Below are positions 10,801-59,169 of a stretch of 64,000 bases of DNA, piece after piece (position 1 is the stretch's first letter; each line of letters starts with the position of its first letter). Both the position numbers and the translations under genes were made by a program. The notes beneath the pieces are model-generated. The model had not been told where the DNA came from and did not search any database. It was given only the letters and a program-made list of their open reading frames with translations. This DNA is from Mytilus californianus (Eukaryota). The stretch spans positions 59,024,001-59,088,000 of the forward strand of contig NW_026262723.1 in NCBI RefSeq assembly GCF_021869535.1, written 5' to 3'.

Positions 10801-13800
10801 CAGCCATGCTCCAAAACTTTTATATGTGCACAGGTTTGTCTGTACAAATTTGTGAAATTTGTGGTGTAAATACGGCCATATTTGCTAAAAGGTTATGATG
10901 AACCTTAAAGGTAGAAACTGATTAAGTACTATAATTATTTACTTCCACGTTGTTACAATCTATACATCGAATTGAATATCGTAAGATGACCTTTACCAAT
11001 TTATATGTAAAAGTATAATAACATTTTACATTGACTATTTATTACTTTGAAAGGCTGGTATACCGAAGGATAATCTCCTCCTCGCATTAGAACCTGAAGC
11101 TGCTTCCATATATTGCCAATACCTACCCACAGAAAAATTCACTGGTATAGAACCGGGATTCACAATGTCAGAACCAGGAACCAAGTATATGATTGTAGAT
11201 ATTGGAGGTAATTACAGCTTGTCATCCTTTTTACCAAAGTACTAGTACTCATAGTAAAATAGGGTTGGATCAAATACATTAAAACTATCTTCAGAAGAGA
11301 TTATTTCCTTCGATAAAAAGTATACAATAAAAACGTAGCAGGGTTAAATTGGCTAACTGGCATTGATGTTTATAAACCGTTCTTCTAGTAAAATACAATT
11401 TCATTTTAAGTTGGGTTTGACTTTTTTTTTAATAAAAATTACAAAATGTTAGCAAATATATATTTTTATGCATTGTAAAATATTAAAAAAATTATATAAA
11501 TTAAACAAATTCGATTTTTTGTTCCACGATCACATTAAAACAGAAACGCAGTAGATTTAGATATTTACAAATCAGATTTTGTGTCGCACTATTATCTGGA
11601 ATATTTTTAATCACATTGGTTGTATCTCGATATTGCTATTGATAATCAGTTTAAGGTTGTTATACAGAACGTGTTAAAATTTACAATCCACGAATGTGAT
11701 GTACATACAACAAGTCATGTGATCTATTTAATAGGTAGGCATATGGAAAGGGTTTTCCCGTTGAAATTCAATATACTTTTACTATACTAACTATATTTGG
11801 CCAACAAAAACATTAGAGGAAAAAAAAGAAATAAACCAATGACTTATAGGAAAGGCGAACATAAAAAAACAAGACACAGAAAACTATTTAGGCAACACGA
11901 ATCCATGAAAACACGAGAGTAAATTGAAATTTTCAAAAAGGTTATCAGCTCCTGCTTCACTAGTTGTGCCGTCGTGTTGCTCATGGCAAGTAAAATACTG
12001 TGATCAGCTTCATCAGCTTATTTCATGTATGAATGACAGATCAGGTAAATAGGATTATTGTATCAAGTGCGAAAAGTAAAATAACAAAATGCCGAACTTC
12101 CAGGAAAATTCAAAAGGAAAGTCCCTAATCAAATGGCAAAAACACATCAAATGAATGGAAATCCACTGTCATATTCCTGACTTGGTACGGCATTTCCTTA
12201 TGTAGAAAATGGTGGATTAAACTTGCTTTTTAAGCTAGCTAAACCTAAACCTTGTATGACAGTCGCATAGAATTCCATTATATTGACAACAATGTGTAAG
12301 CAAAATAAACAGACATAATAGAAAAAAATGTCAAAAAAATGGAGTATTGCAGTCACTATTATGTTATAATCTTAATCAGTATAAAAACAAACAACTATGT
12401 CAACAAAGAAAAACAAATTGGCATACAGACACTCTATAGACAAAGCATATAAGCAAAAATGAGAGACACGAATATAAAAAATGACCATAACACAATAACA
12501 CAATGGCGAGATGTATAAATACCGAGCCACGCCAAAAGGATAATACCATAAATACACTAAACAGTAAAGTTTAAAAATATCAAAGACAAATGAAAAGAAC
12601 ACTCTAACACGTAATTAAGATGATAAACAACGTCAGTACCTCGAATCTATACTTCAAGACAATCATGTATTATTTGTGGAGTTGATACGGAATATTTACC
12701 AACAAGGTCCTGGTATCTTTTTTTAGAAAAAAGGATTAGACGTACTTGATTTGGTTTAATAATTGTTTTGTCTTGAGCACCTCTAACAACCCTCATGTAG
12801 ACAAAACATGCGTCTTGCGTTCTCACTTTGAAGTCTCTAACCTTTTCTGAGTCTTTTTCAGAAGTAATTCTAACAGGACTTATTAATTCACATTAATTCA
12901 TAACATTGCACCAAATATCTAAAAAAAAAAATCATTTATTTTTTTCTTTTTATTTCAAAGTTATTTAGGATTTACCTAAACCAATTCATGCGTTTGTTAT
13001 TCTAATGCCCAACATATAGACGGGACACTTTCATTGTCTGTATTCTCTTAATCCATGCTCATAAATGAACGTATTGCACTATTTACAAATGTTTCAGCAC
13101 TTATTGCTATGCTAAATTTCCAGCTTTTGATCAGAAAAATTTAAAACAAAATATGTAAATGTTTCCAAAATATAGTGAGTATAATGTTTATCAACCATAA
13201 GTAATAATGTAGAAAACGATTTTTAAAGCACCATGATATTCTTTAGGCGGAACAGCAGACATCACAGTTCATAAAAAATTATCTGATGGTTGTTTGAAGG
13301 AATTATGTCGAGCTACTGGTGGAAAGTGTGGGGGCACTTGTGTTGATTCAGAATATATACAAATGTTAATCAGCATATTAGGCGAATCTCTTATTGAAAT
13401 ATTTAAACGAGAAAATCCTGAATCCTACCTTGACTTAATCAGAGAATTTGAAACTAAAAAGAGAACAATCACATTTTCACCAGATACGAAAAAGGTTAAC
13501 ATGGTTATACCAATGACGGTAGTAAACAAACTTTGTAAAACACACATAAACAAAGATTTTAAAAGTGCATTAGCATCGTCACAGTTTTCTGATTCCATAG
13601 TCATTCGCGGTGATAAAGTGCGAATCGACACTGATGTCTTCAAGAAATTGTTTGACAAAACAATTGCAGATATTCTAGAACTTATTCAAGAAATTTTCAA
13701 AATGAAAAAAGCAAACTCCCTAAATCAGATTCTTCTTGTCGGTGGTTTTTCGACATGCGTCCTTGTTCAAGAGGCTGTTCGACGTGAATTTTCAAACTGT

Positions 13801-14298
13801 AGAGTAGTTATACCGTTTGATCCGGATTTGGCGGTTTTGAAAGGAGCTGTTTTGTTCGGTCATAAATCAGACCTTATTTCATCTCGCATTAGTAAATTTA
13901 CATATGAAATATCATTTAATCCTAAATTCGATTCAGCGATTCACGACGACAAACATCGTAAATTCATAGATGGATTTTGGCGATGTAGACATGCATTCGA
14001 TAAAATAGTAGAAAAAGATACGGTAATTCGAATTGGAGCTACAATACAGAGAACGTATAAACCACAAAAGGATTATAGTAAAACATGGTTTAAGATATAT
14101 GCAAGCGAAAATTATGATCCAGTTCATACAACTGAAGATGGTTGTTTTTTTCTTGGTAAGGTTGCCATTGATCTTTCGAATTCGGAACGTCGGAAAGGTT
14201 TAGAAGTTGAATTCACCTTCGGAAACACTGAACTTGGCTTGACTGCTATAGAAACAAAAACAGGAATCAAATGTAACGCACAGTTTGCATTGATATAG
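7849..14298 (+). CDS. HSPA12: Heat shock 70 kDa protein 12-like (G1), intact, 578 aa
   Basis: join(7849..8160,8577..8795,11054..11207,13247..14298); all introns GT-AG, phases 0,0,1. Motifs AAIDFGTTYSGYAFS, LTVPAIW, LEPEAASIYC, DIGGGTADITVH, LVGGFS; no EEVD tail. Acceptor at 7833-7834 implies an upstream non-coding exon. Confidence 0.93.
8899..9049 (+). mobile_element. Family A repeat (3' end of a Penelope-like retroelement), G1 intron 2
   Basis: ggggttcgtgttgctcagtctttagttttctatg...ggtatctttcgcctctctt; same tail follows element coding-end sequence at 48680-49052. Confidence 0.75.
9252..9683 (+). mobile_element. HINE-like element with ~120-160-bp internal tandem units
   Basis: Repeated units (ttatacgga...attgagct...tactatga.gagtta.agat.gagt..acgttt..gctgatttt) at ~9307, 9466, 9589; terminal gtgagct and perfect hairpin gtgtcg-ttc-cgacac (9660-9674) before a T-rich end. 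Confidence 0.55.
9872..10050 (-). mobile_element. Degenerate Penelope-like RT fragment
   Basis: Translates KSKLYDKRDGFNLP..DEDVTLVASYVVYILQL, matching the LYDKRDDF..P....P..YGVYISQL region of this RT family. Confidence 0.7.
11054..11207 (+). CDS. HSPA12: G1 exon 3 (missed by the ORF track)
   Basis: aag|GCTGGT...ATTGGAG|gtaatt; AGIPKDNLLLALEPEAASIYCQYLPTEKFTGIEPGFTMSEPGTKYMIVDIG. Confidence 0.93.
11830..11985 (-). mobile_element. Degenerate family A copy (only minus-strand tail copy noticed), G1 intron 3
   Basis: caacacgaatcc...cagctcctgcttcactagttgtgccgtcgtgttgctc is the reverse complement of the family A 5' part. Confidence 0.6.
12072..12345 (+). repeat. Interspersed repeat family B (unclassified)
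   Basis: aaaagtaaaataacaaaa..ccgaact..ggaaaattcaaa..ggaaagtccct..aatggcaaaa..ctgtcatattcctgacttggtac; other copies ~9797, 14480 (-), 14924, 42962, 48425 (-), 51600. Confidence 0.8.
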
Positions 14299-24558: not shown

Positions 24559-26721
24559 TTATGAATTGAAAGAAACTGCAACAGGAGGGTTGTCATACGA
24601 ATTTTTAACACCGCTGATCACTGCAGTCCAGAATAATCGTTTTCCTATTCCTTTTGTGTGCGATAAATATGGCGTTGTATAAAGTAATGTACGAAGGGCA
24701 CTTGTCATATGTTTGGAGTCAATCTGTTTTACCATTATCAGAACCATCGCATTTTTTCCTCGTCGGCGTCTCCTTTCTTGGACAAGATTAACTTCCCACT
24801 GATTCAATTCACTTCTAGCAAAGTTATTTGACATAATTACTATAAATTTCCAGCTTTTATTCATAAACTTTTCAATATCGTCAACAATATATTCGCCCAC
24901 CGTAAAATCTCTTAGATGTATACAGACTTTAAATCCTTCGTTTTCAAGGCGTTTCAAAAGAACATCGTGGACCCATTTACGATCTTTCTCGCAGTAAACA
25001 ACATAAACATCAAATTCGTAAGTTCCTGGTAAATCTGATCGAACAGATCTAGATCTACGCTGTCGACGTCGATGAAGGTGATAGAGGTATAACGCATTAC
25101 GAATATTGTTTTGACATTTTAAAGTCACACTTCCTATTAAAACAATCAATAAAGCACAGAATAAAACAGACCCAATAAAAATGTTAGTAGGATCTGAGTC
25201 TTTGCACGACTCTTTGGTTGGCATGTATTCAACTATTTTAACGTCCTTCAGTTCCTCTGGAAAGGAACACATGTAGTTGTCAGGCCACTTTACCAGTTTT
25301 GAAGATAAGTTGGAAGCACGGAGGTGATCTACAAACCATTTATTACTGCAAATACACCAAAATGGATTGTACGATAAGTCTAAACTTTTCAGAGATGCAA
25401 GAAGATTCTCGGGAATTGAAGTTTTATTGATAAGATTGATTGAATTTCCATTTAAATTTAAAACTTTGAGAGATGTTACATTATGGAAAAGTATTGGATT
25501 CCATTTGCTTATACTATTTCCTTGTAATATTAAAGTATGAAGAAAAGGTTTGTTTTGGAAAAACATGTCTGGCATGGTTGACGAAAAGGTCTTTTGCAAA
25601 ATTAAATTCCGTAAATTGTTCAAAGGTGCAAACATTTGGAGAAAAATAGATTCATTTTTTGGCAAATAGTTCCTCGTCAAATCGAGGTAAGTGAGGTTCT
25701 GCAAAAATCGGAAAACCAATTTTGAATCAAATCTATCCAAGTCGGTAAACTTGAAGTCATTCTGTATAAATTGTAACTTTTGCAAAGAAACACAGTTGAA
25801 AGCACGACTTTTAAGTTTTCTCAGTTTCATAAAACTTAGTGAAAGCCTTTCTAGACTTATCAATGGTAAAAATATATCATTGCTGATCTCAATTATTCTA
25901 TTGGTGTTCAGTTTTAACTCCCGCAAATTATTCAAACACCTGAAGGATCTAGAAGAAAGCGACCTTATAGCATTGTCAGATAAAGTCAACTTTTTAAGAT
26001 TTGGAGCAACAGTTGAATCATTTTTGGAACAAAAATTCGGAATAATGACAATTTGATTTGCAGTTAGATCCAATTCTTCAACTGTTTGGAAACCATTCGT
26101 TATTATCAAATGTTCAATTCTATTCCCTGTGCATGTGATTTTTCCAACTTGATTAAAAGGCTCTAATAAAGTTGCATCAAAAGTCAAAAGAATATTGGAG
26201 TTCAAAGACAGTTTAGAAATATTAGCTCCAGCTAAATATTTGAAAAGAGTGTTTGGAATTTTTTCCCATCCATTGTTTTCGAATCTCAATTTTTCAATGG
26301 TAGACACATTTACGCTCCGAAATGATGTTTCAAGGGTCGATAAATTAAGTTTCTTTTCATATGAAATTTCAAGTGTTATCATGGTATTCAGAGATTTGAA
26401 CGTGTCATTTGCTACCATCATAATCCTATTATCTTGCAGTAAGAAATGTCTGATATCATTATCGGTTACATTATAAAACGTATCCTTGTCCAGATTGAAG
26501 AAGGTATTTGACTTCAGCAGTAGTGTAAGAGAATATTCTGGAATTTTTGGAATGTATGTTAATGAAAAACACGATGTCTTTAAGCTATTTTGGCTGCACT
26601 TACAGAAATTTGTTAAACAACCTGTAGTTCCATCGACTAGATAAATCACAAAATAAAATCTTAACAAACAAACCATCATGTGTTCCTCAGTAAACCGATA
26701 AAAACTCTGTGTTATAAACAT
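24559..26721 (-). CDS. TLR: Toll-like receptor, single-cysteine-cluster type, intronless (720 aa from M1; likelier start M15/M16 at 26679/26676)
   Basis: Hydrophobic signal (MMVCLLRFYFVIYLVDGTTG), LRR-NT (CLTNFCKC), ~15-17 LRRs, LRR-CT (NPFWCIC..YMCSFPEEL..C), TM (IFIGSVLFCALLIVLIGSV), TIR (FDVYVVY..HLRDF..G..LFW). Confidence 0.95.
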   Translation of the reverse strand: MFITQSFYRFTEEHMMVCLLRFYFVIYLVDGTTGCLTNFCKCSQNSLKTSCFSLTYIPKIPEYSLTLLLKSNTFFNLDKDTFYNVTDNDIRHFLLQDNRIMMVANDTFKSLNTMITLEISYEKKLNLSTLETSFRSVNVSTIEKLRFENNGWEKIPNTLFKYLAGANISKLSLNSNILLTFDATLLEPFNQVGKITCTGNRIEHLIITNGFQTVEELDLTANQIVIIPNFCSKNDSTVAPNLKKLTLSDNAIRSLSSRSFRCLNNLRELKLNTNRIIEISNDIFLPLISLERLSLSFMKLRKLKSRAFNCVSLQKLQFIQNDFKFTDLDRFDSKLVFRFLQNLTYLDLTRNYLPKNESIFLQMFAPLNNLRNLILQKTFSSTMPDMFFQNKPFLHTLILQGNSISKWNPILFHNVTSLKVLNLNGNSINLINKTSIPENLLASLKSLDLSYNPFWCICSNKWFVDHLRASNLSSKLVKWPDNYMCSFPEELKDVKIVEYMPTKESCKDSDPTNIFIGSVLFCALLIVLIGSVTLKCQNNIRNALYLYHLHRRRQRRSRSVRSDLPGTYEFDVYVVYCEKDRKWVHDVLLKRLENEGFKVCIHLRDFTVGEYIVDDIEKFMNKSWKFIVIMSNNFARSELNQWEVNLVQERRRRRGKNAMVLIMVKQIDSKHMTSALRTLLYTTPYLSHTKGIGKRLFWTAVISGVKNSYDNPPVAVSFNS

Positions 26722-27459
26722 TTGTGTGAAATATATGCTTCCTGAAGCTATTTAAATTGAAATGGTATAAAGCTGAAAAATATTATATTTTATATAATTT
26801 AAAACTTTAAAGCATGCAACCTTCCTGTAAATGATGGAAATACAACTTATATATGTTGATCTTTATAATAATGTAGCATTTTGTGAAATCCTTTGGAAAT
26901 ACCCATTTTATGTTCCTGCTTATAATAATTGAATAAAACATTCTTTCCTGTTGAAGTATTAAAAAAAATCTTTTGAAATAGAAATGGAATTAACGGATCA
27001 TCAGTGACTTTCAAGACAATTTCTTCCTTTTTCCTAATTCAACTACTGACGTGTATTTTATAATATTACATTTGATGAACTATGACAGTAATTGTTCGAT
27101 TTTTTTTTGTCTTTCACGCATCGATGTTTTCCAATGCAAAAATGTATATCGGTGACAGCTTCAGACTCAAAATTGCATTTAGGATTGAGCTTTGAACTTG
27201 TGCTGAAAACATAAAACTTTTTTTTTATTAAAACGGCAATAAAAACCTGTTCCTTTACGTTGGGTTTTGTCTAGAAGTGCAAGTGGGGATCGTGCGTCGT
27301 AAATTAATACACCTTGTCTAATTTTAGTCGACTTTTACATTCCCCAACCGGATGTTCTTTATTTATAATCAACATGTGATTCGTTTGATCTCAGTTTTCA
27401 ATTAGGTCAATATACAATTACGATGGCAAGTATACTTGCTTTCCTCTAAGTTTGCTATT

Positions 27460-27499: not shown

Positions 27500-28118
27500 A
27501 TAAAACGAGGACATCTCTGAGCAGATCACTGAAAATAGAAAGATAAAGTGTGACTACATTTGGGCTAAAGAACCTTGTTTCTGAAGTACACGCTATCTAT
27601 TCATCTCTCGAAAATAATCATCCGCTTATATTTAAAAAATACACAACAAAAATATTTTAAAACATTAATAAGTGTTAACTGCTAGTGACATTTTGAAGCA
27701 GAATTGCCGTAATCGACCTCAACCGAAGATGTATCAGTATATAGATCAACGTTGCAAATTTCCGGCGCCGAAAATGTCAACGTAAAATGTCATTAAAAGT
27801 TAAAAGTTGGACCCTTTTCTTCTTTTTAGCAATTTTTTGTATCTAGATGACAAGGAAGTCATACGATATGTTGAATCCGTATTAACGTTTTACCAACACA
27901 GGCCAAGCTTGGTAAAATCACAGCCCTATAGGCCTACATTTTATTGATTTGTTGATAAATATACATCTCTGACATCGTACAAGTTTCGTGGATCAATTTT
28001 TATTTCGTGAATTGTTACTGACCGAATAAAATAAATATAGTCAGTAATTAATAAATACTACTGAAATCAAAACAGTAAATATAACATCAAATAAATTCAC
28101 ATAAGCAAGATAAAAATC

Positions 28119-28271
28119 TTAACTGGGAAACACGTCTAATCGAATCGGCCCTGTCGTGCTGAATGGTTATATCCCATGAAGCGCGCGAATACAAATAACG
28201 GTCTATGGGTAGACAACTAGAAGAAATTAATTTCAATCTAATTCAGTTCCTTCAAACGGTTGAAATTACAT
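28119..28271 (-). repeat. 3' direct repeat (A2) of the YR element
   Basis: Ungapped match to 32570-32722, 6 mismatches by hand count. Confidence 0.95.
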
Positions 28272-28461
28272 TTCTTCTACGATTACTAACGCCCATAGAC
28301 TACCCAACACTATACACATAACACTAATAAAAACTAAACTAAAGTTCAAATTGAATACCCACACGACAGTGCCATGTGCTGAACTACAAAGAACGGGCAA
28401 TACAATTTTTATCTTGCTTATAGAACTTAATTCACTTTCAAAATAAAAAGTCATAATCAGG

Positions 28462-29457
28462 TTATAAACCTAAATTTTCAGAAACAATTAATCTGTCTTT
28501 TAAAGAGTCTTTAATATAACCGTCCTTGGCGGTCTCTGAACGCCATCTACCATGTCTTTTGAACAATCGATCGAAAACGCCTAAATTGGCACAAGTTGTA
28601 GCTCCACCAGACCGTAAACTGTGCAATCCATATTTTTTAATATCTGACACAAATGGTTGAAAAGCTCCAATAAATAATTCTCTCATACGTGTATAAGACA
28701 GTGGTTTGTTATCCTTCCGAAGTATATATCGATCCTTGAATTTTGTTAAATTTCTAAAAATAAATTCATCTGAATCCGGCGAAATATCAGCCCACAACAA
28801 ATATAACTTTAAATTCTTTACTGGACAAATATCGGAATCCATACAGGCTATTACTTCAGAATTGCTATCACGATAAATATCAGTTTTACTTTTCGGAATA
28901 AATATAGATACATAACCTAATTCAAACTTGATATCACATATCCGTATATTTAATCACTCGGACACTTTCAAAAATCCCGAATAAGCAAGTAAACACGCGC
29001 AAATAATACGCTGTGAAATAACATTGTATTCCTTAAATAATGAACTATACATTTTAGTTAGAAGCTCAGGAGTAACTGGTTCCTTTTTCTCAGTTCGTAT
29101 AGCTAAGCGCCGTTTTGCACCTTCTAAAACATTTTTCACAACTACATTTTTGGTAGGAGACGTTTGACGAATCATATGATGTGCCCATTGTATACTATAA
29201 AATGCTGAAATAACCGGACTAGCAGTGTTACTGTTATAAACTAATGAAGATAAATATAGTGCAACGTGCAAAGGTTTTGCCGGTAAAATATCACAACCAT
29301 TTATACCGTTATGAACGGCCCACTTTTTCCAACGGATAAATCCTGCATGATAAGTGTTAACGTTACTGTCAGCTTTAGATTCTCAAAGTAAATCCATAAG
29401 AACATCAACATTGGTATGCAGAGTTGGTGGCAAAAAATTAATCTCAGATTCATAAGC
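28462..29457 (-). pseudogene. Tyrosine recombinase of the element, disrupted
   Basis: One frame with in-frame TGA at 29383-29385 and 28954-28956; first catalytic Arg is Lys (GFLK, AAA 28966-28968); KSKTD, HSLRSGGAT, RHGRW and GY retained; first ATG at 29397. Confidence 0.9.
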
Positions 29458-29815
29458 CTGCAAAAACACATGTATAAACAATAATAAAACAATAATAGCA
29501 TCTTAAATGATGGAAACTACCAACAGAAAAATACTTGTTAGTACATCTCACAAGACTATACACAATAGTCTTAAACGCTTAACATACGCATTTGTATTTG
29601 TTAGTATATTAGTTCTCAACAAGGCCAATTATAGCCTTAATGCCAAAATCTGAAACCAATTCAGATATGCATTGTAACGTTAGTACACAAACAAGGCACT
29701 TATACAGCCTTTAAAATATCTTCTTATATCTATTTAAAATATCATCTGTAAAATTCAGATAAGCATAAACAGCTTCATAAACAAAATAGGTTTACAACCT
29801 TCATACATATCAGTA

Positions 29816-31786
29816 TTATATTCTGAAATCTAGCCTCAAAGCTAACATCTTAAATGTAAGATCAGTATTACCAAAAATGGCTTTCTTGCTTTTACCAGGA
29901 GTATAAAACTCCTTACCGCTTGGTAATTCTACATGTGCAATAACTTGATCTGTTAAATCGCCCCCATTTGGGCATAGCATAGGCCAATAACTTGCGGATG
30001 GCCAACAAGGAACAATCAATGTACCTACAGCGTTGCATTGTCTCATGTAATTAATAACACGTGGTATAAGAAATACAGGCGGTACAAAAAGACCGTTAAC
30101 CCCAAACCAATTAACTGTGAAAGCATCAATACCAGAAGAATTTTCATTCCAAAATCTTGAATAAAATACCAGTAACTTGAAATTGTGATCAGAAGCAAAC
30201 CAATCTACTTCATGAGGTCCCCATAAAGCTTCTATCAATTGAAATATATAATATGATATACCCCAATCATCATGATCAACGATGCGACTCAAAAAGTCAG
30301 CTTTTTCGTTTAGTGTCCTAGGTATCCAAACTATATCAATATTGACATTGTACTTCAAACATGCGCTAAATATGTCCAACGCTAAATTTTGTAAAATAGT
30401 TTTTGTACTGCCCTTGCTAACAATGCTCACAACATTCTGGTTATCTGTAAACCATTTGACCTTTTTTCCAGATATAAAAATAATTAATGACAGCAAAACT
30501 TTCTTAACCGCTGAAAGTTCCTTCCAAGTTGAACTATTACTACGTTCTGATTCAACCCACATACCATGTGTAATGTTTTGTGGTGTTTCTATAATATAAC
30601 CTCCAAAGCCTGTATCACTAGCGTCACTATAGATAATACTATGACATGATTCATCAACACTAAAATGTTTTACATTAACTTCACTAATATACAGTTTCCA
30701 GAATTGTAACTGTTCAATACTAGATTCAGAAAGTCTAATATAAGAATACCAAGACGCAGATGTGTTCACGTCTATAGTTAAATGTTTAGTCATTAAATAA
30801 ACTAAATTTCCAATAACTAAGTATGTAGATATTATCTGACCTACAACAGATGCAACTTTTTTCACGTACACGCTTTTAGGCCCAGTTAAACAAGATATAA
30901 TGTCATCAATAGAATGTATCATCTTATCTATTTTATTATCTGGTATTTTATAAAAGCCATACTCTGTATCAATAAATGTTCCTAACCAAACCAGACGTTT
31001 AGTAGGTTCCCACAATGATTTTTCGGCCTTAGGTACAAAGCCACTTTTAACTAAATCTAGCTTAACTTGTTCTGACACAATCTTACACATATCTTTATCT
31101 TGTTCAATACCTAACCCATCATCAAGATACATAATGACTTGTTTACCTTCAGATCGCCATTTCTTTACAAGCGGCCTAGTCAGTTTAGTAAAAAGAAAAC
31201 AAGCTGTACTTAATCCAAATGGTAAAACAAGAAATTTGAAAAATGTAGGACATCCATTAATGGTCCATGAAAAACCTAAATACTCTGTGTGTGGTTCAAA
31301 AATATCAACATGGTGATAAGCTGAGTGAACATCAAACTTAAACATAGAATAGTTCAATTTAATATGCTGTTGAGCAGTTCTCATATCCTCAAATTTAACG
31401 CTCTGTTTCCATAAATGTTTATTAACCGCTCTCAAATCAAGTATCAATCTTTTCTTTGAATTAGATTGAACTGATACAGTAAGAGGATTAACAACAAAAG
31501 GTCGCTTATCACACTGAACTATCAAACCTCTATGTAATAAATCCTGAAAAGCTGTATGCACAAAATCGGAATTTTTTAAAGCTGATACATTGTTACATAA
31601 ATACGTAGACGGAGGAATAGAATAAAATGGTAACTTATAACCATCTCTTATAGTGTCAATAATATAATCATAAGCACCAATATTTATCCAAAATTGGATA
31701 TTTTCCTTCAGCCTACCCTTAACAATTATATCAGTACCATCTTGCTCATATTCGAAATAATCATGTGTAAACGTTGGTTCAGACAA
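29816..31786 (-). CDS. pol: pol: RT + RNase H + methyltransferase-like domain (656 aa open)
   Basis: ILDLRAVN, VLPFGLSTAC, MYLDDG; YSDASDTGFGG, KELSAV, FTDNQNV, NEKADFLSR; VDWFAS..KL..FYSRF..DAF..W..VPP..LIVPCWP. Track start is TTG; the frame continues upstream past TAG 31817-31819 to ATGs at 31960/31975, overlapping gag. Confidence 0.93.
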   Translation of the reverse strand: MSEPTFTHDYFEYEQDGTDIIVKGRLKENIQFWINIGAYDYIIDTIRDGYKLPFYSIPPSTYLCNNVSALKNSDFVHTAFQDLLHRGLIVQCDKRPFVVNPLTVSVQSNSKKRLILDLRAVNKHLWKQSVKFEDMRTAQQHIKLNYSMFKFDVHSAYHHVDIFEPHTEYLGFSWTINGCPTFFKFLVLPFGLSTACFLFTKLTRPLVKKWRSEGKQVIMYLDDGLGIEQDKDMCKIVSEQVKLDLVKSGFVPKAEKSLWEPTKRLVWLGTFIDTEYGFYKIPDNKIDKMIHSIDDIISCLTGPKSVYVKKVASVVGQIISTYLVIGNLVYLMTKHLTIDVNTSASWYSYIRLSESSIEQLQFWKLYISEVNVKHFSVDESCHSIIYSDASDTGFGGYIIETPQNITHGMWVESERSNSSTWKELSAVKKVLLSLIIFISGKKVKWFTDNQNVVSIVSKGSTKTILQNLALDIFSACLKYNVNIDIVWIPRTLNEKADFLSRIVDHDDWGISYYIFQLIEALWGPHEVDWFASDHNFKLLVFYSRFWNENSSGIDAFTVNWFGVNGLFVPPVFLIPRVINYMRQCNAVGTLIVPCWPSASYWPMLCPNGGDLTDQVIAHVELPSGKEFYTPGKSKKAIFGNTDLTFKMLALRLDFRI

Positions 31787-31811
31787 ATTTTCTAAAGAAA
31801 TTGTGTCAAAA

Positions 31812-32561
31812 TTATACTAATCTTTTACAAAACAAGTTTCTTTTGTGTGATGCTGCTGTCTTGTTGTTTTGGAAGGGGCAGTTAACTCTCCAGTGCTTGT
31901 ACGACCCACAGTTGAAGCATGGTCCCCGTTGAGATTTTCCAGCATACTGGTCTTGGGCATACGGGAAACTTCCATACCAAGACGGCTGGCCCCCTCGAAA
32001 GGGCTGTTGAGGATTGAAGCTAGGGTTGGCGGTGGAAGGAACCTGCTGTTGTTTAGGAGCTGGATTGCTCTTTGCCTTTTTCTTCCTAATGGCCCTGTTT
32101 TCAGCTCTGATTATCTTGGACTCGTCTTCTGAATCACAAGCAATTGGGTTTGCCTCGTACTGGCGAGCTGTGTCCCATCCCCCATCAGAAGTGTCCGCGA
32201 TCTTTATTAACTCATTTCTTTGTTTAAGCCTATCTGTACATGATGCAATAATGTCTCTTGCATAGTCAACTTTGCCATTGTCAATAGCTCACAGAGCCTG
32301 GGTTAAATCTTCTAAATTTTCGGTATTACCATTGAACTGAATTTTATTACCTTCAGAACGCCATTTATACTGGGAGTCCGACTTCAACTTCTTGACTTGA
32401 GATTTCATACATTGGTTTGTTCCGTGGATTTCGTCGCGCAAACTATTAATCTTTTCGCTGATTTTGGTATCCATAAGAACTTCAATATCCTGCTTTTGAC
32501 GATTAACTGCGTCTAAAACTGTACGCAAAGATATTTCTTCAGAGGGTGTATCTGAATCCAT
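31812..32561 (-). pseudogene. gag: gag-like ORF (250 codons) with one premature stop
   Basis: TGA at 32289-32291 (likely W); frame continues AIDNGKVDYARD..KIADTSDGGW..YEANPIACDSEDE..CFNCGSYKHWRVNC (CX2CX4HX4C) to TAA 31812-31814. Confidence 0.88.
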
Positions 32562-32569
32562 GTTTTATA

Positions 32570-32722
32570 TTAACTGGGAAACACGTCTAATCGAATCGGC
32601 CCTGTCGTGCTGAATGGTTATATTCCATGAAACGCGGGAATACAAATAACGATCTATGGGCAGACAACTAGAAGAAATTAATTTCAATCTACTTCAGTTC
32701 CTTCAAACGGTTGAAATTACAT
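32570..32722 (-). repeat. 5' direct repeat (A1) of the YR element
   Basis: Ends 8 nt before the gag ATG; matches 28119-28271. Confidence 0.95.
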
Positions 32723-39870: not shown

Positions 39871-42800
39871 CTATTCTAATGTAAACTGTGCCATGCATTT
39901 GTTTCCCGATGCAGCTTCTATCACAGTCAAACTAAGTTCAGTGTTTCCAAAAATAAACCCAACTTCTAAAACTTGGCATCTCGACGAATCCGATACATCA
40001 ATGCCAATATTACCAAGAGAAAAGCAATCATCATCAGATGTATGAACTGGATTATGATGTTCGCTTGCAAATACTTTAAGCCATATTTTATTCACATTAA
40101 TTTTTGTGTTATACTTTCTCTGTATTACAGTTCCAATTGGAATTACCGAATCCTTTTCTAATATTTTATCAAAAGCATGTTTACATCGCCAAACCCCATC
40201 TGATAAATAACGATATTTTTCATCATGAATAGCTGTGTCAAATTTTGGATTAAACGAAATTCCATATGTAAATCTACTAATCCTAGATGAAATGACGTCT
40301 GATTTATGACCAAACAGAACAGCACCTTGTAAGACAGACAAACCCGGATCGAACGGTATTATTACTCTACAGTTTGGAAATGCTCGTCTCACAGCTTCTT
40401 GAACAAGAACGCAGTTCGAAAATCCACCAACAAGGATTATTTTATTTAAGGATCGCGCACTTTCCATTTGAAATATTTCTTTAATAAGCAATATAATATT
40501 TGCAATTGTTTTGTCGAACAGTTTCCTTAAAACATTAGCATCTATACGCACTTTATCGCCATAAATAACAATGGAATCTGAATATGGTGATGATGCTATG
40601 ACGCTTCGAAAACTTTCTTCTAGTTGTTTCTCACAAAGTGTGTTCAGTGTTGAAAATGGTATAGCCATGGTGACCTTTTTTGTGTCTGGATTAATTGTTC
40701 TCTTTTTTGTTTCAAAATCTCGTATTAAGTCTAGGTATGATTCAAGATATTTTTGCTTCATAATTTTAAGGACAGGTGCACCTACAATCTTTATCATTAA
40801 TTGAATGTATTCTGCATCAACACAAGTTCCGCCACAGTTGCCACCAGTAGCTCGACATAATTCCTTCAAACGGCCACCCAACATTTTTTCGTGTACCGTG
40901 ATGTCTGCTGTTCCACCTAAAATTATTAAGGTTTATTAAAAATCGGTTTAGTTATTATCACTCATACATGTAATTGAAACAAAAAATCTTGTTGTTCGGA
41001 AACATTGACAAATTTATTTTTCGAATTGTTATTAACAGTGATGTATAAATTTAATCAAAGTATTCGGTGTAGAGGCTTCTGTTTAAAGTTTTAAAGTATC
41101 AATTAGATCATTCTAACAACATGGAGTAGTGTAAGATATTAAGAACAGCAACTAACTTTAGTGTAAAAATAAAAATTAAATGTATTTCTTTTAAGGGTTT
41201 GGTACATGGATATAAAGAAGTGTTTGCAGTACTACTGTTGTCTAAGCTGATGTCATCGTTACTCGGTTGATCAAAATGAATTGATGGCCACTTGTCGTAG
41301 CCACAATGCTGTTACAGGTGTATATAAAAACACCGAAAGCTACGTCGAACTGACTTTGTTCTTGCCCTCAGCAAGACGGTTGACAGTAGGGTTGCAGGAG
41401 CTTCTTACTCTTATTGATCTTCTGCGTTCATCGTTTTGGTGTGTTCACTTGTTCATTATTCAATCTTGTTTGTAGTGTTGTAGTGTTGTTTTGTTAGTTT
41501 GGGGTTTTTTTTTTTTGCAATGGCTTTGTCTTTCGGTTTCCAATATTACACTTGGTATCTTGTTTACTTTTTAAAATCTTGCTTTCAGAAATGTTTGTTC
41601 TTCCCTCAACGGGATTCGAACCCTTGCTTCTGTGACATCGTGGCAACTCCGCCTGCGCTGTGTTCAGCGCAAATCTCAAGATCTAACATTGTCACTAACT
41701 AGAAATTATGGTTTGTTATGCATTTTTGGTAGACAATACACAGTCGGGACCTTGAAATAATCAAAGCAGGCCTTAAACTTTCTGACATGTACGGTTAAGA
41801 AATGTAGCATAAGACCCTGTACCTGATCCGCAGGAAATTGTTAACCCTTTACAACACTGTCAAAGGTTTAATCAGTGAACTCTAGCATTGGTGAACCTTA
41901 TAGTCAAATTCACATTGGTTTTAATGATGTGTCATAACTTTATTGGAAAGAATAACGGAGAATTTAATGGAGTCTTAGGCCATTTAGATCAACCACATAT
42001 AGCTTGTATAAAAACAAATAGTGAAATATAATAAGTACCTCCAAGATCTACAATCATATACTTAGTCCCTGGTTTTGCCATTGTGAATCCCGTTTCTATA
42101 CCAACCAGTTTGTCTGTAGGTAGGTATTGGCAATATATGGAAGCAGCTTCTGGTTCTAAGCACAGGAGAAGATTATTCTTTGATATACCAACCTGTCAAA
42201 AAAAATCAATATTTGCTTTATAATATCCTTTTACTTCAATATAAAGAAATATCATTCAGAAACTGTACAGTTATTTGTAATATAAGATGATATGATAAGA
42301 GCAAATTCCTAGATCCGGAAATTCACAAACCAGTAGCATTCCAACATCCTTTCATAATCATTCGAATTTTATGCATACCACTTGATATCAAATCTCGTTA
42401 TTTAATTTCATTAATATGTTGAAATTATGCAACTCGAGTTGATATCAAATATCTCACGAGTTATGAATCCTACGTTTATCTATAACCAGTGGTGTAGGAG
42501 TGGACTGAAGAGTGGGGTCAAAGTTTGAAAGTAACAAGCAAAAAAATAAGATTTGTATAGTCTAATAGTCTAGGAATTAGTCTGTTAAATTTTTAATATT
42601 TTTTTATTTTTCTAAAATTTTGTGATGGCTCCTACGCCAGTGTATATAACGAATGGTCATTATACTTGAATAAACATAAGAACATTGCATAGTTATATGC
42701 TTATTATAAGTAAAACATATACATAATTACATACTGTTTTACCTTTACTGCACTTTCTCTCATAAATTGTTTTGAAATATCTGTCCAAATTGCAAGGACA

Positions 42801-47268: not shown

Positions 47269-50200
47269 TTATATCATTTCTATTGTCTCCTCGCATTTTT
47301 TATGAGTTGCTGTTTCCTTGATTTTAACTCTAATTTCAGTTTCTCCGAAAATCAATTCGACTTTGATTTTGTCAGCTGTACCAGTGCCTGTAAGCTGCAC
47401 TGTTATTGTTCCTAAGACCGAACAACCATCTTCGTCGGTGTACATTGGATTATCCTTTTCTGTTTGATAGATACGAAGTGTAAACAATCCATTGTCCTCT
47501 TGTTTACATTTTGCTACGGAAGTAACTTTTTTGCCTAACGGTAGTATTTCATTGCGTTTCACTATTGGATCGAATACACGACTGCATTTCTCTTCTCCGT
47601 TTACTATTTCTAAATGGCTACTGTCATACTTCAGTGGATCAAACTTTTTACGTTTACTGAATCCATAGGTATACTTAGCAATTCTTTCAGAAATGGCATT
47701 GGGCTGATGACCAAATATTACGGCTCCTTTCAAAACCGCCATCTCACTATCTGTTGGAACAATTACATTTTGATCGGGAAAAGTAGATTGTACTGCTTTT
47801 TGAAGAAGGACACATTCTGCAAAACCTCCGACAAGAATAATTTGTGAAAGTCCATCAACACCTTCTCTTTTCAAAATTTCATCAATTATTTCGATTACGC
47901 CGGCAATAGTTGGCTGGAATGAGGAAAGAAAAGTGTCTTCCCTTATACGTATCTTGTCAGAAATTATCGAAATATCTGAATTAAACCTGGACGACTCGAT
48001 AGCGGATTCAAAATTTTTATTCAAGTGTTCTTTACAAAGATCGTCCAAAACTGTAAACGGGATCGTCATGTTAATTGTCCCAGATTTTCCAACACGAAGA
48101 CTTCTTTTTCTGCTTTCAAACTCTCTGGATAAGTCGAGGTATGAGTCCAGACTTTCTCTTTTGAAAGCTTTCATCGCTTCGGTACCAGTGATGTTCTCTA
48201 TCATTTTCATGAACTCCCGGTCAACACTTGTTCCACCATAATCACCACCTGAGGCACGACAAATCTCTTTTAGGCTTTCGTCGTTTCTTTTTTCGTGAAC
48301 TGTAATATCGACCGTCCCTCCTGAAATAGTATCGTAATATAATCATTTTGTTTTTAAATTGGACGTTTTTTTCCTTCTAAATCTATATAAATGGAACATA
48401 TATCTTAAGTATCAATTTCAATGTTCAAAGTGTATTTAAGCTTTTGATTTTGCCATTTGTTAAGGGACTTTTCGTTTTGAATTTTCCTTGGAGTTTGTTA
48501 TTTTTGTTATTTTACTTTTTTCAACAATTTCGACAATTTATAGTGCCAAAAAGCATAACGATTTTAACAAAAAGTCATTGTAAGACTATTAGATCTTTGA
48601 TATGATAATGTTTTTTTTTGGAATAACATAGTCCATTCAACCACAGAGTTCCCTAGATAGAAATACTGATTAATTATTAAGAGTTGGTTGACCCTTATGG
48701 GATATCTGTTTTACAGATAACAACGGATATGTTCCAATTGTCGCAACCACAATCACATCCCCTTTTCTTTGAATGTGACCTACCAAATTAGACTTATCAC
48801 CGGGTTTGTTACACATATGAGCAACACGACGGGTGCCAGATGTTGAGCAAGACCTTTTTACCTACCCTTCCGGAGCACCTGAGATCACCCCCGGTTTTTG
48901 ATGGGGTTCATGTTGTTCAGTCTTTAGTTTTTTATGTTGTGTTTTGTGTACTGTTGTTTGTCTTTTCATCATTTTTCGTTTTTTTGCCATGGCATTGTCA
49001 TTTTGTGTTGGACCTTTTGAGTTTGAATATTCCTTCGATATCTTTCTCCTCTCTTTTACAAAGTGTTGGCCATTAGTGTGTAATACTAAATAGAAGAAGA
49101 TTAATACGCCAGATATATCTGTAATGAGTTATATTTTCTTTAAAATCACCATTGCCAAAGAATCACACATGAACTTTTATATATAAAGATCCTAAAAGTC
49201 ATACATGTACATATTTTAGGACGGAGTGACATAATGTTTTCATCAAACATTAATCACAGGGAGATTACTATAACAAAACTCCTTCACATATGGACAAAAA
49301 AAAGGTAATCAATATAACCAAATGAAATCTACATTTTGCAATAGACAAGGAACTAAATGAACGATAAGCTAGCCCATGTACCATCATGAACCAATATCCA
49401 TACCCAAGCCCATTTCTTTATTATTCGAGGAGCCAGGAACCCTATCATTGGAGCCTTGACCTGTTTTATTTAAGCCTGTTTCCTAATGCGAAGTGGACTT
49501 TTAATTGGGAGCTTGGAGATCAACAATAATATTTGGATGGCGATATTTATAATCTGTATAATTATTCGCATATGCATCATACTAATGAATATGAAGGATA
49601 GCTCTTTCAAGTGCAATTATAAAATCACTAAAGTGGTTAATTCATTGAAATGCACTTTCAAGAAACGGTAACTAAAACACTGAGAATGAACAAATATAAA
49701 ATACAAAATGAATAAACATGGTAACTGTGACAAATATTGCATAATTACAATAAACTGAACACCCTTCAAGTTTAACCATTATATCCACTGTTTAATTCCG
49801 AAAAAATACAATTATTTCTACACGAGTTACCTCCTAAATCAACAACCATATATTTTGTTCCAACGGTAGCGACTGCAAATCCTTTTGCTCCTTCCAATTT
49901 TTCTGTAGGCAAATGTTGACAGTATATTGATGCTGCTTCGGGTTCAAGGGCTATTCGTAATTTATTCGATGATATCCCCGCCTGCAAATTTATTTAATAG
50001 TATATATAGTTAGCATCCTTATAAATATAATTATGATCATATTTTCGATTAGGAATCTTTGCTTTACAAGCTGCACAAATCCAACGAAATATAATTTCAC
50101 ACATAGATCTTTCTTTTAAAATTTTATTTAAGTGAAGAATTATCATGATAGTAAAAAGCTTTTTATAACCTAAATACAATTATAAAAAAAAAACACCACC

Positions 50201-57383: not shown

Positions 57384-59169
57384 TACATTTCCTTACATTT
57401 TACTACAATTCATCTTCGTTATGATCAGTCCTCTTCTGTATGATCAGTTATCTTTGTTATTATCAGTAATATCGTTTAAGAATTTCCTGTATACTGAAAT
57501 CGTTTCAGAAAACTAGATTCAGGTTGATAGTTAACTTATGTAGATTAAATGTAAATCACAAGTAAACTAACTGTGAACTTCAATGGTAATTTTGATCTGA
57601 GCTGATCTTGAAAAAGATCTTGAAAAAGACTTGAAAGACTGAACAAACATTATAAATTATGCTTAGCCTTTCATAAAATTTTAAATTATATCCACTGTGG
57701 TAAATTCAGTAATGATCAAACATTTGCGTTCCATTATGGCTATTTCGGTCTATTTTAAGAATTTATATAAGCTGTTTTTTAATAAGCAAATCATTGAGCT
57801 TTTAATCGTCTCAAAAGTGACTGAGCAGTACTGAATTTATTGCAAGTCTGAACATTGGTGGATTAACCACCAGGAAAATATCTCAAGAAGCTAATGCTCT
57901 TAACGACTGATAAATGTTAATTTTAATCCATTTCAAGTGATATTGAGATTAAAATTGCTGTTTTAGAGAAATATTTATTTAACTAACGTCAAAGTACTTA
58001 AATTAATGTAAACTGTGCATCACATGTGATTGCCGTTGCAGATTGTATCACAGTCAAACTAAGTTCAGTGTTTCCGAAGGTAAATCCCAGTTCTAAAACT
58101 TGGCGACTCGACGAATCAGAAATATCAATGACAATGTCACCAAGGAAAGAACAACCATCATCGGTTGTATGAACTGGATTATAATTTTCGCTTGCAAAAA
58201 CCCTAAATCATATTCTACTTACATTTGTTTGTGTTGTATAATTTCTTCTTATTGTAGTTCCAATTGGAATGACCGAATCTTTTTCTTATATTTTATCAAA
58301 TGCATCTTAACATCGCCAAACGCCATCTGATAATCGACGGTGTATTTTGTCGTGAACTGCTGGATCGAATTTAGGATTAAATGAAATTCCATACGTAAAT
58401 CTGCTAACGCGAGAAGAAATGACGTCTGATTTATGACCAAATAAAACAGCTCCTTTCAAAACTGACAAGCCTGGATCAAATGGGATTATAACTTGGCATG
58501 TGGGAAACTCCCGTCGCACAGCTTCTTGAACAAGAACGCAGTTCGAAAATCCACCAACAAGAAGAATTTGATTGATTGAGCGTGCGATTTCCATTTGAAA
58601 AATGTCTTGAATAAGCTGTAGAATATTTGCAACTGTGTTTTCAAACATTTTCTTGAAGACATTAACATCTATACGTACTTTATCACCCCGAATAACTATG
58701 GAATCTGAATACGGTGATGATGCAATAGTGGTTTTGAAGTCTTCTTTCAGATGTGTTTTACAAAGGGCGTTTAGTGTGGTAAATGGTATAATCATGTTGA
58801 CTTTTTTAGTGTCCGAAGGTTTGTTTCGTTTTGCTGTTTCAAATTCTCTCATAAAGTCAAGGTATGATTCAGGATTTTCTCGTTTCATGATTTCAATGAA
58901 AGGTGCACCAACTATCTTAATTAAAACTTGTATGTACTCTGCATCAACACCAGTTCCTCCACAGTCTCCACCTGTAGCTCGATATAATTCTTTCAAACAA
59001 CCATCTGACAATTCCTCATGTACTGTGATGTCTGCTGTTCCACCTACAAGTTATTGAGATCCTTGAGTTTTTATCAATATCACTCATTAGTAAAACATAT
59101 ATACGTAACCCTCTTTTTATAAAATATAAAACACAACAGGACATCCTCAAAGAAAATAGTCATCAGAAT

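What the first reader, a model, noticed from the sequence alone, without database searches (positions are those of the whole stretch)
28101..32722. YR retrotransposon with a hybrid terminal architecture and a fold-back 3' end
Seen (sense = minus): A1(153 bp)-gag-pol(RT/RH/MT)-YR-c'(28405-28421)-133 nt-A2(153 bp)-1 nt-c(28101-28117), where c and c' are a perfect 17-bp inverted repeat (ataagcaagataaaaat). Known: DIRS1-like elements have inverted termini plus an internal complementary region after YR; PAT/Ngaro elements have split direct repeats with both A and B duplicated. Here no second B copy was found, yet a half-ICR-like complement sits where DIRS1 has its ICR. Inferred: either a truncated PAT-like copy or an undescribed end structure in which the RNA 3' end folds onto c' to self-prime reverse transcription, with A1/A2 supporting strand transfer and circularisation. 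How both ends would be regenerated is not explained by this one copy.
Basis: partly seen in the sequence, partly recalled or inferred. Interest (0 to 1): 0.7.

Follow-up and report, generated by a model that had tools for sequence, protein, structure and literature searches.

The report
Truncated PAT retrotransposon, conserved end signals
This is a broken copy of a known kind of jumping gene that has simply lost its last 150 bases, but its relatives share a short signal, and some share a fold-back stem, around an internal repeat block, and these likely help the element rebuild its ends when it copies itself.

Summary
The coordinates are right, but the reading is not. The window copy is a 3'-truncated, dead PAT-type (echinoderm-form Pat1-like) tyrosine-recombinase retrotransposon. 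Of 20 family loci carrying the spacer, 19 run on into a second B repeat (A1-ORFs-B1-A2-spacer-B2); only the window copy stops early. So c is the start of the spacer, not the RNA 3' end, and 3'-end self-priming is refuted.

The c/c' stem is nonetheless real: 21 bp in intact copies, compensatory changes in a sister family, and an unrelated 20-bp stem at the same place in a distant lineage. No such stem is supported in the other 25 of 29 family representatives.

More general signals emerged: a pyrimidine motif directly before B1 (27 of 29, never before B2; also in other hosts), a poly(A) hexamer at spacer|B2 (24 of 29), and a spliced recombinase exon seen in RNA data. Most likely the motif marks where copying of B1-A2 stops and second-strand synthesis starts, with the stem as a lineage-specific helper; this is inferred. 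Earlier scan notes saw similar spacer, fold-back and poly(A) features in other genomes.

The parts
32570..32722 (-). A1, left direct repeat (153 bp); its start forms part of an inverted-repeat hairpin at the B|A junction; initiator-like CCATTC at about 32615 (predicted start site)
31812..32561 (-). gag-like ORF with CX2CX4HX4C zinc knuckle; premature stop at 32291
29816..32110 (-). pol frame (RT, RNase H, methyltransferase-like C-terminus); stop at 31819, open 31816-29819
28462..29457 (-). tyrosine recombinase exon behind a pyrimidine-CAG splice acceptor (29458); premature stops at 29385 and 28956
28401..28421 (-). c', 5' arm of the long-range stem (17 bp perfect here, 21 bp in intact copies)
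28383..28397 (-). conserved pyrimidine motif (core CCCGTTCTTT, 28397-28388) directly before B1; not repeated before B2
28272..28382 (-). B1 repeat (111 bp), 96% identical to B of an intact copy
28119..28271 (-). A2 repeat (153 bp); B1|A2 is the internal copy of the end-to-end junction
28101..28117 (-). c, 3' arm of the stem; first bases of the spacer
28033..28118 (-). surviving 86 of 125 nt of the spacer; the rest of the spacer, the poly(A) hexamer and B2 (150 bp in all) are missing

Best explanation
The window holds a dead, 3'-truncated copy of a PAT-type recombinase retrotransposon whose intact relatives end B1-A2-spacer-B2, and its c/c' repeat is a long-range stem that is predicted to loop out B1-A2 and likely helps reverse transcription stop and restart at the conserved pyrimidine motif before B1. 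Proposed cycle: RNA starts inside A1 (initiator-like motif about 45 nt before its end; inferred). It is polyadenylated a few tens of nt into B2, because the hexamer lies at spacer|B2 and not before B1 (position shown, use inferred). The first cDNA strand therefore lacks the outer ends and restores them by copying the internal B1|A2 junction (the generally assumed role of split repeats). Copying must end at B's 5' border. The motif sits exactly there and likely is left by RNase H as the primer of the second strand, in the place where LTR elements have their polypurine tract (inferred). In lineages that have it, the stem ends 17-21 nt before B1, about the polymerase-to-RNase H distance (recalled figure), and would act as a stall that keeps B1-A2 available as acceptor. 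The circle would then be integrated by the recombinase at B|A. Separate odds: identity as a truncated PAT copy about 0.97; stem under selection about 0.75; this particular mechanism about 0.35.
For: Layout: 19 of 20 spacer-bearing loci continue into B2. 33 of 40 further regions from divergent families show A1...B1-A2-spacer-B2; the other 7 are truncated or interrupted. Motif: 27 of 29 representatives before B1, 0 of 29 before B2. The exact 10-mer occurs 26 times in 650,722 bases (both strands) of 80 metagenome loci, always on the sense strand 9-219 nt after the YR stop. Poly(A) hexamer: 24 of 29 at B2, 0 of 29 at B1; flank background is 7% per 26 nt. Stem: P=0.003 against shuffles in the window family and its sister, pairing probability at least 0.9 in context, window copy's 3' region z=-4.2. 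Compensatory changes between window family, sister family and L113. An unrelated perfect 20-bp stem in L202 ends 21 nt before B1 and straddles A2's end, on a separate branch of the YR tree.
Against: No intermediate was observed; the motif's and stem's roles rest on position and conservation only. The stem is not general: no support in 13 of 16, 9 of 11 and 3 of 6 representatives, and the cognate-versus-swapped test gave median ranks 0.43, 0.36, 0.52 (P 0.28, 0.049, 0.64) for the other 25. In the sister family the main helix ends about 27-30 nt before B1 and starts 16 nt after A2, which does not fit the 18-nt argument. The motif is pyrimidine-rich and variably spaced from B, unlike a polypurine tract. 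The motif pattern was written after seeing the sequences. 28 of 59 metagenome tails lacked even the loose motif in their first 200 nt (some are short or of other clades). RNA data showed no poly(A) tail or start site, and one contig reaches at least 30 nt into B2. Variants shared by both copies of a repeat also occur in the transcribed end of A, which fits the rival internal-priming model at least as well.
Confidence: 0.45

Rival explanations
1. Internal self-priming. c is a primer-binding site directly after A2 and c' is the primer, freed by a cut in the RNA, as in fission-yeast Tf1 (recalled). The short cDNA copies A2 and B1, stops at the motif and jumps to B2 at the RNA 3' end, so A and B are each duplicated from one template.
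For: c starts at A2's 3' border in two separate lineages (-2 and -7), and in L202 c' overlaps the end of the YR coding sequence. A1/A2 identity stops sharply near the gag start codon (within 8 nt in 16 of 25). A variant 15 nt from A's end is shared by A1 and A2 in 4 of 9 copies, and no inherited one-sided variant was seen in that segment.
Against: 25 of 29 representatives have no supported stem. The sister family's stem is displaced by 16 nt and has G-U pairs and a mismatch. A cut after c' would leave about 20 nt of motif on the cDNA end that does not match the spacer. The variant-sharing evidence is one site in A and one in the start of B.
Confidence: 0.2
2. The stem regulates RNA processing rather than reverse transcription, for example splicing that skips B1-A2, use of the A2 promoter, or poly(A) choice.
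For: In another family a GT..AG intron runs from inside YR to an acceptor in the spacer and removes B1-A2 (6 raw reads from 3 starts and one contig). G-U pairs in the sister stem point to RNA-level pairing.
Against: That family (L085/L088) has no stem. No such joint was seen for the window family, though coverage was very low.
Confidence: 0.2
3. The stem is a neutral by-product: fold-back template switches between the end of A2 and the region before B1 occasionally create short inverted copies that hitchhike.
For: Patchy occurrence on the tree. L134 carries a 125-nt, 90% identical inverted copy of the pre-B1/B1 region right after A2 (may be an assembly chimera). 17-bp inverted repeats are common here.
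Against: Compensatory substitutions keep the homologous core paired across families 79% identical over the YR C-terminus.
Confidence: 0.12
4. One reading: the RNA ends at c and folds back on c' to self-prime, with no B2.
For: True only of the literal sequence of this one copy.
Against: 19 of 20 spacer-bearing loci have B2. Even this copy continues 68 nt beyond c in register with intact copies. Priming there would skip B1, A2 and B2.
Confidence: 0.02

Closest known systems
Echinoderm-form Pat1-like elements (PAT group, order DIRS; Szitenberg et al. 2014, PMC4157794, passages read)
   Same: Split direct repeats, MT-like domain, Gag zinc knuckle, YR on the same strand as RT, internal repeats after YR; reported there from a mollusc (Lottia) and a cnidarian.
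   Different: The passages read describe no spacer, stem, pre-B1 motif, poly(A) position or spliced YR exon. Tree placement with SpPat1 could not be tested.
VIPER/SIRE of Trypanosoma cruzi (PMC6681497, passages read) and TOC1 of Chlamydomonas (unique spacer before the last repeat; recalled, paper not held)
   Same: A unique stretch between A2 and B2 (about 30 bp in SIRE), and short A2-spacer-B2 derivatives like the 11 solo A-spacer-B loci.
   Different: VIPER lacks the MT domain (PMC3266345, passages). TOC1 is non-autonomous (PMC9940879, passage).
Ngaro retrotransposons (PMC9210276, PMC8547959, passages read)
   Same: A1-ORFs-B1-A2-B2 layout and isolated repeat remnants from recombination.
   Different: Ngaro lacks MT; here an MT-like domain follows RNase H.
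DIRS1-like elements (PMC7192593, introduction and passages read; PMC3266345, passages)
   Same: gag, RT/RH/MT and YR; an internal copy of the end junction; primer of reverse transcription unknown.
   Different: No inverted termini and no region complementary to both termini; c/c' joins two internal sites.
Tf1 self-priming LTR retrotransposon (recalled, no call)
   Same: A short arm complementary to a site directly 3' of the repeat, enclosing that repeat in a loop.
   Different: In Tf1 the primer is the RNA's 5' end. Here c' is internal, and most relatives lack the stem.

Membership tests
Echinoderm-form Pat1-like (PAT) | Split direct repeats A1...B1-A2...B2 | tested here: met
   Met by the family; the window copy lacks B2 by truncation.
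Echinoderm-form Pat1-like (PAT) | Methyltransferase domain after RT/RH | tested here: met
   Weakly: Pfam Dam E=0.012, below the curated cut-off, at the pol C-terminus. The region is conserved at 33-59% across families.
Echinoderm-form Pat1-like (PAT) | Zinc knuckle in Gag | tested here: met
   CX2CX4HX4C read directly in the ORF; zf-CCHC E=0.0066 and 0.012, below the cut-off.
Echinoderm-form Pat1-like (PAT) | YR on the same strand as RT, with internal repeats downstream of YR | tested here: met
   (PF00589 E=1.3e-6 for the intact copy L062).
Echinoderm-form Pat1-like (PAT) | Groups with SpPat1 in an RT tree | not testable with these tools
   No named PAT, DIRS1 or Ngaro reference proteins were obtained; the tree holds only unnamed relatives.
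DIRS1-like | Inverted terminal repeats plus an ICR complementary to both termini | tested here: not met
   Self-comparison of full-length copies shows direct repeats; the only family-wide inverted pair is the internal c/c'.
Ngaro | No methyltransferase domain | tested here: not met
   An MT-like region is present.
Tf1-type self-priming (mechanism) | Primer arm at the RNA end, freed by a cut, in all members | tested here: not met
   c' is internal and a stem is unsupported in 25 of 29 representatives. The cut itself is not testable here.

The most novel reading that the evidence does not exclude
PAT retrotransposons hide an LTR-like replication cassette inside their 3' end. B1-A2 acts as the LTR, the conserved pyrimidine motif before it is the second-strand primer, and the site right after it is the first-strand priming site, which some lineages serve by self-priming from c'. 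This would name the unknown primers of split-repeat recombinase retrotransposons.
Probability: 0.2. Interest if true: 0.75.

Novelty: new member of a known kind. Interest (0 to 1): 0.4.

Why it matters
The locus itself is an ordinary dead copy. The value lies in what the comparison gives. How DIRS-order elements prime reverse transcription is stated to be unknown even for DIRS-1 (PMC7192593, introduction). The motif fixed at B's 5' border across hosts, the poly(A) hexamer at spacer|B2 and the recurrent stem give exact nucleotides at which cDNA and RNA ends should map, which makes the question testable. The spliced recombinase exon explains how a YR frame without an early start codon is expressed. 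Whether these signals are already in print is open: nine full-text searches turned up no paper, by listing or by the passages read, that describes them, but the main primary papers on PAT, TOC1, kangaroo and Ngaro could not be read.

Tried and rejected
Hybrid DIRS1/PAT end: rejected.

General stem in all families: rejected.

Motif as a U7-type processing signal on the antisense strand (a recalled resemblance): the Rfam U7 search found nothing over the cut-off and the weak hits lack the motif, so it is unsupported. A tRNA primer was considered; no tRNA set was tested.

Mapping transcript ends: no listed holder is on record as RNA. The one raw RNA run gave 72 and 43 laid reads, many on flanks or adapters, with no start/end peaks and no poly(A) tail at B2; this is uninformative. 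Contigs that pass from A2 to gag are explained by graph merging of the repeats and are not taken as circles.

Variant sharing between repeat copies (54 A pairs and 55 B pairs from 62 loci) was too sparse to separate the two priming models.

A search for DIRS1- or Ngaro-type references in the genome gave only PAT-type elements among those resolved; 8 of 39 regions had no YR match to the query.

Three rows (L132, L179, L198) were dropped from the tree for frame breaks. The primary papers on kangaroo, TOC1 and PAT and one review were not held. No supplements were read.
Full report
Observation. On the minus strand the window holds A1 (32722-32570), gag, pol, YR, c' (28421-28405), 133 nt, A2 (28271-28119), one base and c (28117-28101), as described. 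A1 and A2 differ at 6 of 153 sites. Pfam finds RT (E 6e-12), RNase H-like domains and a weak zinc knuckle, a weak Dam-like methyltransferase (E 0.012) and, in an intact copy, a phage-integrase-family YR. This copy is dead, with stops in gag (32291), in the pol frame (31819) and twice in YR (29385, 28956). A 17-bp inverted repeat is not rare in this AT-rich DNA: 17 of 300 shuffles and 9 of 22 other 5-kb stretches have one.

The end is truncated, not hybrid. A search of the own genome with the 3' end gave 64 matches, of which the best 30 were fetched and annotated. Twenty carry the sequence that begins with c, and 19 of these continue through a 125-nt spacer into a second copy of a 111-bp B repeat. 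Eight are B1-A2-spacer-B2 and eleven are solo A-spacer-B remnants; some share flanks and are duplicates. Eight loci are A1 ends and two end in a single B. The only exception is the window copy, which follows intact copies to 28033 and lacks the last 150 bp. So c is the start of the spacer. The layout, MT-like domain, Gag knuckle and YR orientation match the echinoderm-form Pat1-like elements described in PMC4157794 (passages read). A unique stretch between A2 and B2 is known from VIPER/SIRE (PMC6681497, passages) and, from recall, TOC1. The host looks like a bivalve; this rests on earlier scan notes and was not tested.

The layout is general. Of 40 regions taken around diverged YR genes (49-97% identity), 33 show A1...B1-A2-spacer-B2 and 7 are truncated or interrupted. 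Spacers run from 87 to about 425 bp.

The stem is real but lineage-restricted. Intact copies pair 21 of 21 bases, starting 2 nt inside A2's end and ending 18 nt before B1; P=0.003 against dinucleotide shuffles, pairing probability at least 0.9 in context. The window copy's 3' region folds with z=-4.2. The sister family (79% over the YR C-terminus) has a homologous, imperfect stem (P=0.003) whose core shows compensatory changes, and L113 a further G-C to A-T change. A close relative in a metagenome keeps 21 of 21 with one changed pair, although that lies at a labile A/T run. L202/L204 (42% YR identity) have an unrelated perfect 20-bp stem with the same geometry, on a branch separated from the window clade by stemless lineages. 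Against generality: 13 of 16 representatives and 9 of 11 show nothing. L273 (P 0.007) pairs differently and L261 (P 0.04) and L136 (P 0.05) are marginal. Pairing each family's upstream arm with other families' spacers shows no consistent cognate preference among the remaining 25 (P 0.28, 0.049, 0.64 for three window choices).

Signals that are general. (1) A pyrimidine motif lies directly before B1 in 27 of 29 representatives and before B2 in none; the two misses contain the same core on inspection, and the pattern was written after seeing the data. Its commonest form, CCCGTTCTTT, occurs 26 times in 650,722 bases of 80 metagenome loci, always sense and 9-219 nt after the YR stop. Several of these loci are copies of one family, and 28 of 59 tails had no match to a looser pattern. 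(2) AATAAA or ATTAAA lies within -25..+5 of B2's start in 24 of 29 and at B1 in none, often straddling the border so that it exists only at B2. (3) A1 ends within 8 nt of the first ATG in 16 of 25, and initiator-like and sometimes TATA-like motifs lie in A's last 90 nt. (4) The YR frame starts behind a pyrimidine-CAG acceptor, and its first Met is 77 or more codons in for 9 of 11 families. RNA data confirm use of this acceptor. In a young family a GT..AG joint fuses 271 codons of the pol frame in frame to YR (one raw read and one contig). For the window family one contig from a run only guessed to be RNA uses the acceptor from a donor near the end of pol. A second intron in the young family skips B1-A2 into the spacer (6 reads from 3 starts, and a contig).

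Mechanism. Shown: layout, positions, conservation, splicing. Inferred: the transcript lacks the outer ends and restores them from the internal B1|A2 junction; the motif marks where that copying ends and probably primes the second strand; the stem, where present, loops out B1-A2 and stalls the enzyme near the motif. The main rival is internal priming at the A2|spacer border with a jump to B2, in some lineages using c' as primer. Variant sharing between repeat copies slightly favours this rival but rests on two sites. RNA data were too thin to map ends: no peaks and no poly(A) tail, window-family reads on the element all of one orientation (sense under the usual protocol), a few opposite-orientation reads in the young family, and a contig reaching at least 30 nt into B2.

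Literature. I read passages of PMC9210276, PMC6681497, PMC3266345, PMC4157794, PMC8547959 and PMC9940879, and the introduction and passages of PMC7192593, which says the DIRS-1 primer is unknown. Nine searches turned up no description of the motif, stem or spliced YR in listings or passages read. The primary PAT, TOC1, kangaroo and Ngaro papers were not available, so novelty of these signals is unproven. Earlier scan notes on other genomes mention the spacer layout, fold-back spacers beside a poly(A) signal and a junction hairpin; my poly(A) and motif observations preceded that look-up.

Verdict. The claimed new end structure is an artefact of truncation, and the element is a new member of a known kind. 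The comparison does yield precise candidate signals for an open question, so interest is moderate (0.4).

Noticed in passing
window 24559-26751 (-): Single-frame Toll-like receptor gene (LRR + TIR) about 1.3 kb downstream of the truncated element on the same strand. With B2 and the poly(A) hexamer lost, transcripts from the element's A repeats could read on toward it; untested.
   Followed up: no
window 28015-28047: An 8-bp inverted repeat spans the truncation point, one arm in the spacer and one in the flank, suggesting templated repair at the break.
   Followed up: partly
window 28218-28279; also other families: The B|A junction lies in a hairpin with arms of about 20 bp, and similar arms with a conserved core are visible in distant relatives; a candidate recombinase binding site.
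   Followed up: partly
window 13237-14295 (+), 39874-40932, 47272-48342, 58310-59050 (-): Four similar long exons of an Hsp70-like gene family (weak HSP70 hit for one of the two scanned), probably an HSPA12-type cluster (label recalled).
   Followed up: no
L088 1680-3061 and 3213-5252: Two GT..AG introns in a young family with more than 40 near-identical copies: pol N-terminus fused in frame to YR, and YR joined to the spacer skipping B1-A2.
   Followed up: partly
L134, 416-540 nt after the YR stop: A2 is followed by a 125-nt, 90% identical inverted copy of the pre-B1/B1 region: either a chimeric contig or an extended fold-back end.
   Followed up: no
L081, L085, L086, L091, L281, start of spacer: One clade has a C-rich run directly after A2 instead of c, G-rich on the cDNA strand; possibly another border signal.
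   Followed up: no
L009, L014 and L010-L030: Both deletion products of split repeats occur: elements ending in a single B, and solo A-spacer-B units.
   Followed up: partly
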